Below are positions 39,530-43,220 of a stretch of 64,000 bases of DNA, in pieces (position 1 is the stretch's first letter; the number at the start of each line of letters is the position of its first letter). The notes beneath the pieces were generated by a model that made no database searches, was not told the origin of the DNA, and worked only from the letters and a program-made list of their open reading frames with translations. The DNA is from an uncultured Nanoarchaeota archaeon (GTDB lineage: Archaea; Nanobdellota; Nanobdellia; Pacearchaeales; GW2011-AR1), in the NCBI GenBank assembly GCA_963743615.1, contig CAVUQF010000002.1, positions 65,697 to 129,696 of the forward strand, read 5' to 3'. The translations under genes and the position numbers were made by a program.

Positions 39530-39572
39530 ATTAGTTGTTGATAAAAATAGTTTAAAAATATTGTGTTGAACG

Positions 39573-39595
39573 TACTTTGTTACCTTAAAGGTTGG
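39573..39595. repeat. left terminal inverted repeat (23 bp), preceded by an 11-bp direct repeat at 39564-39574
   Basis: TACTTTGTTACCTTAAAGGTTGG is the exact reverse complement of 43186-43208. Confidence 0.75.
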
Positions 39596-39632
39596 TGGTT
39601 AAGTTTTTAAGTTTCTGAAACATCCTCTTTTT

Positions 39633-40208
39633 ATGAATATTAAAGATGTAAAAACTGCCTTTAAAGTTGCAGATGTAATCCTTGAAAAAGAACATCCGAT
39701 AAGACGTATAAGATTTGTTTTCCTTGATGAAATCTATGATGAACATAGAAAGAGATTAAATAACGATGTTCTAAAGGATAATTCTGGTAGAATTTATCTG
39801 ATTGTTGTGAATGGTCAAATAATGAAAATTGGTGGCTCACAAAGTAAGGGAGGGATAAAAAGCACACTATCCTTTTATCAGGGAGGATTACAAGGCGGTC
39901 CAAGTATCAGGACCTATGGAATTCATATTCTATTGAGCGAAGAACTTGAAAAAGGAAAGAAAGCAGAAATTTATATGATAACTTCTCAAAGAGCAAGGAT
40001 GAAAGTAAAGGGTCTATTTAGTGAAGATGAAACGGAAGTTTCGGCATTTAAGGATATGGAAGATAAATGTAAAAAAGATTATGTTGATAAAGAAGGCACT
40101 TATCCTCCTTGGAATTTTCAGGAGAAGGGAGAACCTTGGAGAGAAGATATAACACGAGGATTAAATATACACGGTAGCAAAAGGAAAGTCTTGAATAAAA
40201 ATAACTAA
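39633..40208 (+). CDS. hypothetical protein, a candidate restriction endonuclease partner of the adjacent MTase
   Basis: 191-aa ORF convergent with the MTase, overlapping it by 4 nt. No motif is assigned, so the call rests on context only. Confidence 0.3.
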   Translation: MNIKDVKTAFKVADVILEKEHPIRRIRFVFLDEIYDEHRKRLNNDVLKDNSGRIYLIVVNGQIMKIGGSQSKGGIKSTLSFYQGGLQGGPSIRTYGIHILLSEELEKGKKAEIYMITSQRARMKVKGLFSEDETEVSAFKDMEDKCKKDYVDKEGTYPPWNFQEKGEPWREDITRGLNIHGSKRKVLNKNN

Positions 40209-41182
40209 TTTCTTGGTGGGCAATAGATTAAAATTTCGTGAGAACCTTTGATATTGCTTTCAGTTCCATTATCAATTCTATTCTTTCCTATCCTTGTTTC
40301 TCCTTGACCCATAGTATATTGCCAAATTGGAAATAATTGCTGAAATTCTTTGTAATATTCTCTTATTGTTGGACAATCATTATAAGACAAGATAAAACCA
40401 CCTTTATGCTGTTTCAATAAATCCCTTAAAACTTCGTGGGGAAATCCTTTATGATGAACAGGAATATTTCTCATAGGATAAATTCCTTTGAACATTTTAG
40501 AATCTGGTCCGATATAGTAAGGTGGGTCCAAATACATAAAATCATTTGGATATTTTTTAAGAGTATCTTGGAAATCTGCCTGTTCAACTTTCAAGTTTCC
40601 TGGTTCAAAATCTCTAATTTTTTCTATTATCTTTTTATATCTCTCTGGTTTTAGATAAATATCAGAACTCCAACCCATAAAACCAGGACCATAAGACAAA
40701 TTAAAATTATAAACATAATAAATAGCAAGGGTTAATGGGTCTAAAGTAATCTCTTTTCTCCAGACCTGATTTAATATTTTTCTTATCCTTTCAAATTCTT
40801 CTTTGGTAGGTTTTAACTCCATTAACTTTTCATAGAGAAGTTTTGGATTTTCTATTTGATATTTCCAATAATTACATAGAATATCAAAAATCTCATAACC
40901 TCGGACTTCAATATCAAGATATTTGCTCATAGCAATTTCAACAGAGCCACCACCAAAAAAAGGGGATATAACTCTTGTTACATTATCTGGCAATAGTTCA
41001 AGAATATGCCCAACAGCTAAACTCTTGCCCCCTGCATATCTTATCGGAGAAACAGGGACTCTCTTGTATTTGTTCATACTCTCTGGGTTTTTACTTCTTA
41101 TGCTTTCCAGAAAATCTCTCCTCTTTTCAGTATCCATATTTATCTCATTCTCTTTTGTCTTTTTAACTTTTCTGACTTGCAT
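40205..41182 (-). CDS. Dam-class (alpha, D12) N6-adenine DNA methyltransferase
   Basis: PIRYAGGKS; motif I ISPFFGGGSVEIAM; motif IV FMYLDPPYY. The likely true start is Met at ~41077. Its 5' end overlaps the transposase gene by 20 nt. Confidence 0.85.
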   Translation of the reverse strand: MQVRKVKKTKENEINMDTEKRRDFLESIRSKNPESMNKYKRVPVSPIRYAGGKSLAVGHILELLPDNVTRVISPFFGGGSVEIAMSKYLDIEVRGYEIFDILCNYWKYQIENPKLLYEKLMELKPTKEEFERIRKILNQVWRKEITLDPLTLAIYYVYNFNLSYGPGFMGWSSDIYLKPERYKKIIEKIRDFEPGNLKVEQADFQDTLKKYPNDFMYLDPPYYIGPDSKMFKGIYPMRNIPVHHKGFPHEVLRDLLKQHKGGFILSYNDCPTIREYYKEFQQLFPIWQYTMGQGETRIGKNRIDNGTESNIKGSHEILIYCPPRN

Positions 41183-42113
41183 TATATATTAACTCCAACC
41201 ATTTATTTTCTGAATTTAATATTAAATCAGTAGCTAATTCATAAGGACAGCAATTCAAACTTTGATGTTTGGTTATGAAATTGTAATAAACTTCCCAACC
41301 TTTCATAATCGCATTTGCAGAATTTACAGAACCGTGAAATCCTCTGAAAGTTTTAGTTCGCTGTCTAATATTATTATGCAATCTTTCAACCATAATATTG
41401 AACCCTTCGCCACGAGAAGCATTAACTTGATTATGGATTACATTTACTTGATGTGTTTTATTTGAATATCCAAAAACTTTCTTTATTGCATTAGGATAAG
41501 CCATAAGTCCATCAGTAGTTATGACTTTGATTTGTTCTCCTGTCTTGATTTTTGTTGCTTTTAGGATTTGCTTAATGTTTCTCTGTTCTCTGTGCTTTAC
41601 AAATTCAGAAGCAACCATATAACGAGTTTCAGTATCTATGGAATCAATAAACCAATTTCTATCTACTCCTCTTTTGTTGTGATATTTTCTTCTGGAATAC
41701 TCCATTTCATCAACTTGCAGTTCGCTACCGACATTCAGCTTTAAGCTGTTTGTAAATTGAGAAATCATCTTGCCATATTTCACAATCCACTTATAGATTG
41801 ACTTATGACTGGAATTATGAGGGTAGAATGCCTTAAAGTGTTCCTGAACCTTTCTGGTGCTAACTCCTCTGTAGAATAAGTCAATAGCACAAGTTATCTT
41901 TTGAGGGGCATTTCTCATTCTCTTGAAGCCATCATCAAGAACAAATGTGTTTAAGCAATCTTTACACTTATATCTTTGAATTAGACCTCTATTTTGGGTT
42001 TTTCTTCTGCACCACTTAATTGTGCTGTTGCTCTTGCATTTTGGACATATCATTTTGTTTTCCATAGTATAATTCGGTATCCGAACTATATATATCTTTC
42101 GGTATCCGAACAT
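41163..42113 (-). CDS. IS6-family-like DDE transposase with an N-terminal zinc-finger extension
   Basis: The C-terminal region (ITTDGLMAYPNAIKKVFG...HNQVNASRGEGFNIMVERLHNNIRQRTKTFRGFHGSVNSANAIMKGWEVYYNFITKH) follows the IS26/IS6 pattern. The N-terminus carries CPKCKS...CKDC. Confidence 0.7.
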   Translation of the reverse strand: MFGYRKIYIVRIPNYTMENKMICPKCKSNSTIKWCRRKTQNRGLIQRYKCKDCLNTFVLDDGFKRMRNAPQKITCAIDLFYRGVSTRKVQEHFKAFYPHNSSHKSIYKWIVKYGKMISQFTNSLKLNVGSELQVDEMEYSRRKYHNKRGVDRNWFIDSIDTETRYMVASEFVKHREQRNIKQILKATKIKTGEQIKVITTDGLMAYPNAIKKVFGYSNKTHQVNVIHNQVNASRGEGFNIMVERLHNNIRQRTKTFRGFHGSVNSANAIMKGWEVYYNFITKHQSLNCCPYELATDLILNSENKWLELIYNASQKS

Positions 42114-42187
42114 ATATTATATACCTACTTAAAGGTATAGTCTTTTAAAATAATAAAGTTTAAAAACATACCTATTTTAAGGTATAT

Positions 42188-42790
42188 ATGCCTAATAGTG
42201 AGTATATATCATTCTGCCATCGTTGTTATCACACTTGGAAGAGAAGACGAGAAGAACTTCCAAAAGTCTGCCCAAAATGTAAAAGTCCTTACTGGAATAA
42301 ACCAAAGAGAATTGCTCAAAGATTAATTCTTCCAACTTCCGAAACTATAATTAAAATCCATGATGAGATAATAAGAAAAAGTGGAGGTGAATTGGGTATA
42401 AGAGAAGATGGAGGAATACATAACTCTATTCTTAAATTACTGAATCATCAACAAAAGAACAGGAAGAATCCTGAAAGTATAGGTGCTTTTGCTTTAAACG
42501 AATTTGCTAAAAGACACTATTTTATAGATGGTAATAAAAGAATAGCTTATGCAGTAGCTAAAATATTTATGCTCATAAATAGATGTCATCTAAAAACAAA
42601 ATATGGTGAAGCTACTGAATTTATTAGAGAGGTAGCTAAATATCAAAGCAAAATAGACCTTCCAGAAATTAGGAATTGGTTTAAAGATAACAGATGTGAA
42701 ATAATTACCGAGAAAGAATTAGAAAACTATTTAAGTAGAAACTACTTTGATTTAGTATTTGAAGAGGAAGGGGGGCAAAATGGAAGATGA
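42188..42790 (+). CDS. Doc/Fic-family toxin (death-on-curing) with an N-terminal Zn ribbon
   Basis: The Doc motif HYFIDGNKRIAYAVAKIFML has the form HxFx(D/N)GNKR. The N-terminal CHRC...CPKC forms the Zn ribbon. Confidence 0.75.
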   Translation: MPNSEYISFCHRCYHTWKRRREELPKVCPKCKSPYWNKPKRIAQRLILPTSETIIKIHDEIIRKSGGELGIREDGGIHNSILKLLNHQQKNRKNPESIGAFALNEFAKRHYFIDGNKRIAYAVAKIFMLINRCHLKTKYGEATEFIREVAKYQSKIDLPEIRNWFKDNRCEIITEKELENYLSRNYFDLVFEEEGGQNGR

Positions 42791-42965
42791 AAAATCTGAA
42801 CTAAAAAATAACGAGATAAAAATAACTAAAAAAATCGTTTATGAATTCTCTAAAAAAGATGACCTTACTGATAAAGATAAGAAATTCTTGAAGTTAGTAA
42901 TGATTGCAGGAGAACTCGTTATAAAGGAAGATGAATTGCTATTCAAAGAATTAGCAAAATATTAA
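42759..42965 (+). CDS. small charged protein overlapping the doc 3' end; a possible cognate antitoxin
   Basis: 68 aa and K/E-rich. It overlaps doc by 32 nt. An alternative start is MEDEKSEL at ~42780. Confidence 0.3.
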   Translation: MKRKGGKMEDEKSELKNNEIKITKKIVYEFSKKDDLTDKDKKFLKLVMIAGELVIKEDELLFKELAKY

Positions 42966-43185
42966 TTATTATTTTTCTTTTTCAATAACTATTTTATCTT
43001 TTTCTATATTAACTTTTAACTCTTTATTTAAAAGATTTGACTCTTCAACTTTCTTTGGGAGATTTATTTTGTATTTATAGTAAGTTGTATTACCTACTTT
43101 CTTATCAACTGACTTCATTATTTTCATAAAATAATTAGGTATCCGAACCTTTTAAATAATTCGGTTTCCGAAGAAAAAGAAGCTA

Positions 43186-43208
43186 CCAACCTTTAAGGTA
43201 ACAAAGTA
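43186..43208. repeat. right terminal inverted repeat (23 bp), followed by an 11-bp direct repeat at 43209-43219
   Basis: CCAACCTTTAAGGTAACAAAGTA is the reverse complement of 39573-39595. Confidence 0.75.
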
Positions 43209-43220
43209 TGTTGAACGTAA

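What the first reader, a model, noticed from the sequence alone, without database searches (positions are those of the whole stretch)
42071..43173. Doc (Fic-fold) toxin module inside the element, flanked by TTCGG-N3-CCGAA palindromic repeats, with a downstream-overlapping small ORF
The Doc motif HYFIDGNKRIAY is intact, which suggests an active kinase-type toxin, fused to an N-terminal CxxC...CxxC ribbon. No Phd-like gene lies upstream. Instead a 68-aa K/E-rich ORF overlaps the 3' end, a reversed order. Near-palindromes of the form TTCGGTATCCGAA occur twice at 42074-42112, ~80-115 bp upstream of doc, and twice more at 43139-43173 just inside the right TIR. They look like operator or recombination sites for a dimeric binder. 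Incidentally, the known Doc substrate is EF-Tu, whose archaeal homologue is encoded ~7 kb away in the same disrupted operon.
Basis: partly seen in the sequence, partly recalled or inferred. Interest (0 to 1): 0.55.

Follow-up and report, generated by a model that had tools for sequence, protein, structure and literature searches.

The report
Zinc-ribbon Doc toxin pair riding a transposon
A Doc-type toxin gene with an unusual zinc-ribbon head and a tiny partner gene behind it is real and widespread in DPANN archaea, but the TTCGG...CCGAA palindromes around it are the promoter control sites of the transposon that carries it.

Summary
There is an intact Doc gene with an N-terminal CxxC...CxxC ribbon (42188-42790), a small ORF overlapping its 3' end (real start probably 42780), and four TTCGG-N3-CCGAA palindromes.

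The reading changes in two ways.

1. Doc plus the small ORF is a conserved two-gene module. All 26 DPANN-type loci checked keep the partner, which ends ...ELAK(H/Y). The partner has no Pfam or PDB relative. The module has its own operators, a different palindrome pair (ATACCT-N7-AGGTAT, 42121-42139 and 42168-42186). This pair flanks the doc TATA box and abuts the ATG. Its half-sites change between loci and track three residues of the ribbon, so the toxin itself probably reads the operator.

2. The TTCGG palindromes are not Doc sites. They are the fixed operator-TATA-operator promoter design of an insertion-sequence family made of a 52-aa AbrB-like gene and a zinc-ribbon DDE transposase. They occur at 40/40 transposase and 66/71 AbrB-like promoters, almost all without Doc nearby.

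The window copy is a 3,636-bp transposon (39573-43208) with 24-bp TIRs and a 9-bp target duplication. Doc sits in its cargo slot. I rate it a new variant of a known kind, of moderate interest.

The parts
39564..39572 (.). Left copy of the 9-bp target-site duplication TGTTGAACG
   Evidence: Read directly. The identical 9-mer abuts the outer end of both TIRs.
39573..39596 (+). Left terminal inverted repeat TACTTTGTTACCTTAAAGGTTGGT (24 nt perfect; weaker match to 39607)
   Evidence: (I1: 48 nt, 81%).
39633..40208 (+). 191-aa endonuclease-like cargo gene (probable restriction enzyme)
   Evidence: phrog_1111 'endonuclease', E 1.3e-14. No Pfam hit. It lies next to the methyltransferase.
40205..41182 (-). 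D12-class N6-adenine DNA methyltransferase (type II R-M cargo)
   Evidence: PF02086 3.5e-33. PADLOC Type II MTase 2.4e-113.
41163..42065 (-). DDE transposase with N-terminal zinc ribbon (300 aa from ATG 42065; IS6/IS1-like, unclassified)
   Evidence: PF13610 1.9e-08. NCBIfam IS6 80 bits, below its cut-off of 125. IS1/IS1595 Zn domain 25.7 bits. Homologues start at the equivalent ATG.
42073..42110 (-). Transposase promoter: TTCGGTATCCGAA (42073-42085), TATA-like CTATATATATCT (42086-42097), TTCGGTATCCGAA (42098-42110). The proximal site starts 8 nt from the ATG.
   Evidence: The same layout occurs in 40/40 distinct transposase upstream regions, 39/40 with two sites at -44/-45 and -19/-20.
42121..42139 (+). 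Distal doc operator ATACCTACTTAAAGGTATA
   Evidence: D12/I17. It matches the proximal site 14/16, better than any of 23 other loci.
42143..42165 (+). AT-rich TATA-box region of the doc promoter
   Evidence: Aligned with the conserved RRTTTAAATATAT box at about -34 to -24 in homologous loci. Its role as a promoter is inferred.
42168..42186 (+). Proximal doc operator ATACCTATTTTAAGGTATA, ending 1 nt before the doc ATG
   Evidence: The position is conserved and the half-site varies between loci.
42188..42790 (+). Zinc-ribbon-Doc toxin (ribbon residues about 8-40; Fic/Doc core about 50-168; motif H110-R118)
   Evidence: AF2 pLDDT 83.6. Foldseek to P1 Doc: TM 0.81-0.83, rmsd 2.0-2.3 A.
42780..42965 (+). 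61-aa partner ORF (candidate antitoxin), overlapping the doc stop by 11 nt; conserved C-terminus ...EDELLFKELAKY
   Evidence: Conserved in 26/26 ribbon-Doc loci. No Pfam or PDB match. Only 5 clusters at 50% identity in 1.84e9 proteins, all 47-76 aa.
42969..43127 (-). 52-aa AbrB/MazE/SpoVT-like protein, accessory gene of the IS family (candidate repressor)
   Evidence: 141 homologues. PF04014 in 6/40 members, best 8.5e-07. AF2 pLDDT 91.8 with beta-beta-alpha-beta-beta order. About 50/80 loci have a transposase downstream.
43135..43172 (-). Promoter of the AbrB-like gene: TTAGGTATCCGAA (43135-43147), TATA-like CCTTTTAAATAA (43148-43159), TTCGGTTTCCGAA (43160-43172)
   Evidence: The same layout is at fixed positions in 66/71 distinct upstream regions of homologues.
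43185..43208 (-). Right terminal inverted repeat (24 nt perfect)
43209..43217 (.). Right copy of the 9-bp target-site duplication TGTTGAACG

Best explanation
Two systems are nested here.

**(A) The Doc module.** Doc plus the small downstream ORF is a self-contained, reverse-order toxin-antitoxin-type module of DPANN archaea.
- The toxin is a Doc kinase carrying an N-terminal four-cysteine zinc ribbon.
- The partner is a 37-70-aa helical peptide with an invariant C-terminal ...ELAK(H/Y). It is translated by coupling to doc and has no DNA-binding domain.
- I infer that the partner neutralises Doc by binding it, as the C-terminal helix of Phd does.
- The module has its own operators. One palindrome (ATACCT-N7-AGGTAT) lies between the TATA box and the ATG, and a second copy lies about 47 nt upstream.
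- I infer that the ribbon of the toxin reads these half-sites as a dimer and represses the apparently leaderless doc promoter. The toxin, not the antitoxin, would then carry the DNA-binding function.

**(B) The transposon.** The TTCGG-N3-CCGAA palindromes belong to the 3.6-kb transposon that carries the module.
- They are the conserved operator-TATA-operator design of its two promoters: P(abrB-like), just inside the right TIR, and P(tnp).
- Their most likely binder is the element's own 52-aa AbrB-like protein, which would repress itself and the transposase.
- Doc sits in the cargo slot between the AbrB-like gene and P(tnp). There, like TA pairs in Tn3 transposons, it probably stabilises the element in its host.

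**Shown:** gene content, conservation, positions, covariation, folds. **Inferred:** all binding, repression, neutralisation and toxicity.
For: **Doc identity**
- Curated profiles are passed.
- The HxFxDGNKR motif is invariant in 36 homologues.
- The AF2 core superposes on P1 Doc with TM 0.83.

**Partner**
- It is present in 26/26 ribbon-Doc loci from different MAG species.
- It overlaps or abuts the doc stop, and its C-terminus is conserved to the last residue.
- Its N-terminal strand is dispensable (L018 39 aa, L037 37 aa).
- It is never fused to another domain.

**Doc operators**
- The TATA box sits at about -34/-24 and the palindrome ends at the ATG.
- Half-sites differ between loci: TACCT, TTGTY, TAGGT, TTAYY, GGTTA.
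- The distal copy matches its own proximal copy better than any other locus in 6 loci with distinctive half-sites.

**Ribbon as reader**
- The three Doc columns most associated with operator class are all in the ribbon: positions 27, 19 and 32, z 7.6/7.5/6.5.
- Ribbon identity predicts a shared operator class (AUC 0.72).
- The Fic domain (0.535) and the partner (0.539) do not.

**TTCGG sites as IS promoter elements**
- Both window pairs lie 8 nt upstream of minus-strand ATGs, inside a 70-nt direct repeat.
- The same layout is found at fixed positions in 40/40 transposase and 66/71 AbrB-like upstream regions.
- It also appears in independent Doc-carrying copies L022, L026 and L153.

**Transposon**
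- 24-bp TIRs and a 9-bp TSD.
- The cargo slot holds other Fic proteins, R-M genes, ATPases and small gene pairs elsewhere.
- Tn3 analogy: PMC7157771.
Against: - No binding, toxicity or neutralisation has been measured.
- The ribbon-operator association rests on 25 related loci. Operator classes were assigned by eye, and one class (TTAYY) holds 15 of them.
- Residues 19/27/32 were picked post hoc.
- Ribbon pLDDT is only 64-77.
- The same ribbon also occurs alone or fused to other domains, so it could be a protein- or RNA-binding module.
- About a third of loci lack a clear distal operator.
- The partner shows no detectable similarity to Phd.
- The window's own AbrB-like protein has no Pfam hit of its own, and the Foldseek matches have E > 1.
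- Nothing distinguishes AbrB-like from transposase as the binder of the TTCGG sites.
Confidence: 0.7

Rival explanations
1. The TTCGG-N3-CCGAA palindromes are operators or recombination sites of the Doc module itself, bound by Doc or the small ORF.
For: In the window they bracket the module and are symmetric, as expected for a dimeric binder. The tnp-proximal pair lies in the doc-tnp divergent intergenic region.
Against: - They are absent upstream of doc in L001-L006 and in most of L015-L039.
- They are present in 40/40 transposase promoters, including compact IS copies with no Doc.
- Their position is fixed relative to the tnp and abrB-like ATGs, not relative to doc.
- Doc has its own conserved palindromes abutting its ATG.
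Confidence: 0.05
2. The 52-aa AbrB/MazE-like protein is the true antitoxin or regulator of Doc, as in a MazE-Doc pair such as TasA-TasB. The small downstream ORF would then be an accessory or unrelated gene.
For: AbrB/MazE-Fic/Doc pairs are known (PMC2701414 Table 2; PMC1626090). The AbrB-like gene lies next to the module in the window, L022, L026, L153 and L124.
Against: - Only 3 of 80 AbrB-like loci carry Doc, whereas about 50 carry the transposase.
- Only the window-population contigs, L022 and L026 among the earlier loci (L001-L094) pair Doc with an AbrB-like gene.
- It is convergent with doc and is only a bare 52-aa DNA-binding fold with no C-terminal toxin-binding tail.
- Its upstream palindromes are not found at doc.
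Confidence: 0.07
3. The TTCGG palindromes are bound by the transposase itself, through its zinc ribbon or HTH, for autoregulation or end recognition. The AbrB-like protein would have another role.
For: One pair lies just inside the right TIR. IS transposases and their N-terminal fragments often repress their own promoters (general knowledge, e.g. IS1 InsA). The transposase has an N-terminal zinc-binding domain.
Against: - No equivalent pair lies near the left TIR.
- The sites keep a fixed distance to the ATG and TATA box, not to the TIR.
- In compact copies the second pair is in the middle of the element.
- An AbrB-fold dimer is a classic palindrome binder and is encoded by the first gene behind one of the two promoters.
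Confidence: 0.2
4. The zinc ribbon on Doc is not a DNA reader. It would instead bind the target (ribosome or aEF1alpha), RNA or the partner peptide. The doc palindromes would be read by the partner's N-terminal strand or by a host factor.
For: - In MqsA the zinc ribbon contacts the toxin, not DNA (general knowledge).
- The ribbon occurs as a stand-alone 46-78-aa protein and is fused to unrelated domains.
- Ribbon confidence in the model is moderate.
Against: - Operator class tracks ribbon residues and not the partner or the Fic domain.
- L018 lacks the partner's N-terminal strand yet keeps a palindrome at the ATG; L037, which also lacks it, keeps palindromes further upstream in its promoter.
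- The ribbon and its tail are strongly basic.
Confidence: 0.3

Closest known systems
Phd-Doc of phage P1 (type II TA; Doc = Fic-fold kinase of EF-Tu)
   Same: The Doc core has the same fold (TM 0.83) and the same catalytic motif HxFxDGNKR. It passes TIGR01550 and PF02661. It pairs with a small acidic/helical partner whose conserved C-terminus (...KELAKH) resembles in character the Phd C-terminal helix (...NKELVNR, from memory).
   Different: The gene order is reversed. The partner has no Phd/YefM DNA-binding domain and no detectable homology to Phd. The toxin carries an N-terminal zinc ribbon and a conserved C-terminal extension of about 30 aa. The operator specificity appears to reside in the toxin. 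The host is archaeal, so the target would be aEF1alpha, which is untested.
Reverse-order or regulator-separated TA systems (HigBA, MqsRA, HicAB; omega-epsilon-zeta, PaaR-PaaA-ParE)
   Same: The toxin gene comes first, as in higBA and mqsRA. The antitoxin lacks a DNA-binding domain, as do epsilon and PaaA.
   Different: In those systems the DNA-binding function is on the antitoxin or on a third protein. Here it seems to be fused to the toxin. No sequence relationship was found.
TA pairs embedded in the transposition module of Tn3-family transposons (Lima-Mendez et al. 2020, PMC7157771)
   Same: A TA pair is placed between the transposase gene and the element's regulatory gene and sites. It is divergent from tnp and close to the promoters. 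Other copies of the element carry different TA or defence cargo in the same slot.
   Different: The transposase family is unrelated. There is no resolvase or res site. The element is an archaeal (DPANN) IS-like element with an AbrB-like accessory gene.
IS6/IS26 family insertion sequences (Varani et al. 2021, PMC7986276)
   Same: The DDE transposase matches PF13610 (DDE_Tnp_IS240), and its best NCBIfam hit is IS6. Some IS6 clades have an N-terminal zinc finger.
   Different: It scores below the IS6 equivalog cut-off. The TIRs start TACTTTGTTACC rather than GG...cTGTt...caaa. The duplication is 9 bp, not 8 bp. There is a second conserved gene (AbrB-like) and a cargo slot, whereas IS6 has a single ORF and only one known passenger-carrying member.
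AbrB/MazE/SpoVT swapped-hairpin DNA-binding proteins
   Same: The 52-aa protein has the beta-beta-alpha-beta-beta order. Relatives hit PF04014. The best structural neighbours are AbrB, MazE and VapB. The palindromic sites suit a dimer or tetramer.
   Different: It is a minimal domain with no C-terminal extension. It is linked to a transposase rather than a toxin. The window protein itself scores below Pfam thresholds.

Membership tests
Doc (death-on-curing) toxins, Fic fold | Sequence profile above curated cut-off (TIGR01550, PF02661) | tested here: met
   TIGR01550 47.5 bits vs cut-off 38.65. PF02661 36.9 vs 24. phrog_577 Doc-like toxin 9e-18.
Doc (death-on-curing) toxins, Fic fold | Doc-type active-site motif HxFx(D/N)(A/G)NKR | tested here: met
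   H110-Y-F-I-D-G-N-K-R118. H, F, D, G, N, K and R are invariant in 36 aligned homologues.
Doc (death-on-curing) toxins, Fic fold | Fic/Doc helical core fold | tested here: met
   AF2 core pLDDT > 90. Foldseek best hits are P1 Doc 3dd7/3k33: TM 0.81-0.83, rmsd 2.0-2.3 A over 118 columns.
Doc (death-on-curing) toxins, Fic fold | Kinase activity on EF-Tu/aEF1alpha and growth arrest | not testable with these tools
   Needs expression and phosphorylation assays.
Phd/Doc-type operon | Upstream Phd/YefM-type antitoxin with an N-terminal DNA-binding domain | tested here: not met
   No co-oriented upstream gene. The downstream partner has no Pfam or PDB similarity to Phd.
Type II toxin-antitoxin module (generic) | Two adjacent co-oriented small genes kept together across lineages | tested here: met
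   26/26 ribbon-Doc loci, plus L001-L006, L124 and L153, keep the partner overlapping or abutting the doc stop.
Type II toxin-antitoxin module (generic) | Palindromic operator in its own promoter (autoregulation) | tested here: inconclusive
   Palindromes are conserved in position and co-vary in sequence. Binding and repression were not measured.
Type II toxin-antitoxin module (generic) | Antitoxin binds and neutralises the toxin | not testable with these tools
Co-expression or pull-down is needed.
AbrB/MazE/SpoVT superfamily (52-aa ORF) | Profile match to PF04014 | tested here: inconclusive
   The window protein has no hit. 6/40 family members hit, the best at 8.5e-07 and 29.3 bits vs cut-off 24.7. 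NCBI names some members AbrB/MazE/SpoVT.
AbrB/MazE/SpoVT superfamily (52-aa ORF) | beta-beta-alpha-beta-beta swapped-hairpin topology | tested here: met
   AF2 pLDDT 91.8 with E2-10, E13-20, H24-28, E36-41, E44-49. Seven of the ten Foldseek hits listed, including the first seven, are AbrB, MazE or VapB, but all have E > 1.
IS6/IS26 family (the carrying element) | DDE transposase of IS240 type above the family cut-off | tested here: inconclusive
   PF13610 35 bits vs 27 is met. NCBIfam IS6 equivalog 80.1 vs 125 is not met.
IS6/IS26 family (the carrying element) | 15-20-bp TIRs with GG tips and cTGTt/caaa motifs, 8-bp duplication, single ORF (PMC7986276) | tested here: not met
   The TIR is TACTTTGTTACCTTAAAGGTTGGT and the TSD is 9 bp. 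There is a conserved second gene plus cargo.

The most novel reading that the evidence does not exclude
In this DPANN family the usual division of labour in a type II TA system is inverted. The toxin carries the sequence-specific DNA-binding domain, a zinc ribbon whose residues 19/27/32 set operator specificity, and represses its own leaderless promoter. The antitoxin is reduced to a bare neutralising peptide of about 35 aa, from a family with no known relatives. The module is one of many interchangeable defence or addiction cargos in a dedicated slot of a previously undescribed archaeal IS family. That family is governed by an AbrB-like repressor acting on two operator-TATA-operator promoters.
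Probability: 0.35. Interest if true: 0.7.

Novelty: new variant of a known kind. Interest (0 to 1): 0.5.

Why it matters
- **TA biology.** Doc toxins and TA logic are well known. A toxin that carries its own operator-reading domain, paired with a minimal antitoxin from a family with no known relatives, would be an unusual regulatory design. It is directly testable because specificity-swap residues are predicted.
- **DPANN archaea.** These have tiny genomes and depend on hosts, and little is known about their mobile elements. This IS family has a conserved AbrB-like regulator, twin promoters and a slot that holds Doc, large Fic proteins, R-M systems and ATPases. It looks like a general vehicle for addiction and defence genes in these organisms.
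- **Annotation.** Public records label these proteins only as Doc-family toxins. At least two records cut off the ribbon, and the partner is unannotated.

Tried and rejected
- **Complex modelling.** I built a paired alignment of Doc + GGGGS linker + partner (A4) for AF2.
- **Similarity of the partner to Phd or any solved structure or Pfam family.** None was found. The only hit was a designed helical repeat protein, and the rest were weak chance matches.
- **Partner fused to a DNA-binding domain somewhere.** phmmer against 1.84e9 representatives found only 5 small clusters.
- **Ribbon-only homologue search.** It returned only six short stand-alone ribbons and no new toxin fusions. The ribbon-plus-other-domain proteins P0118 and P0120 also have promoter palindromes. 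They also have an extra C-terminal domain of unknown function that could itself bind DNA, so they do not discriminate.
- **PADLOC.** No hit for the partner, the AbrB-like protein or the transposase.
- **'Ribbonless' 145-aa Doc homologues as a natural control.** At least P0103 and P0111 are truncated gene calls of full ribbon-Doc ORFs (L030, L022).
- **TIRs close around the transposase alone.** None were found; the only TIRs are those of the 3.6-kb element.
- **Literature on zinc-ribbon Doc toxins or AbrB-linked archaeal IS elements.** Nothing was found in the library searched.
- **Not done.** The sigma-70 promoter scan was not used because it does not apply to archaea.
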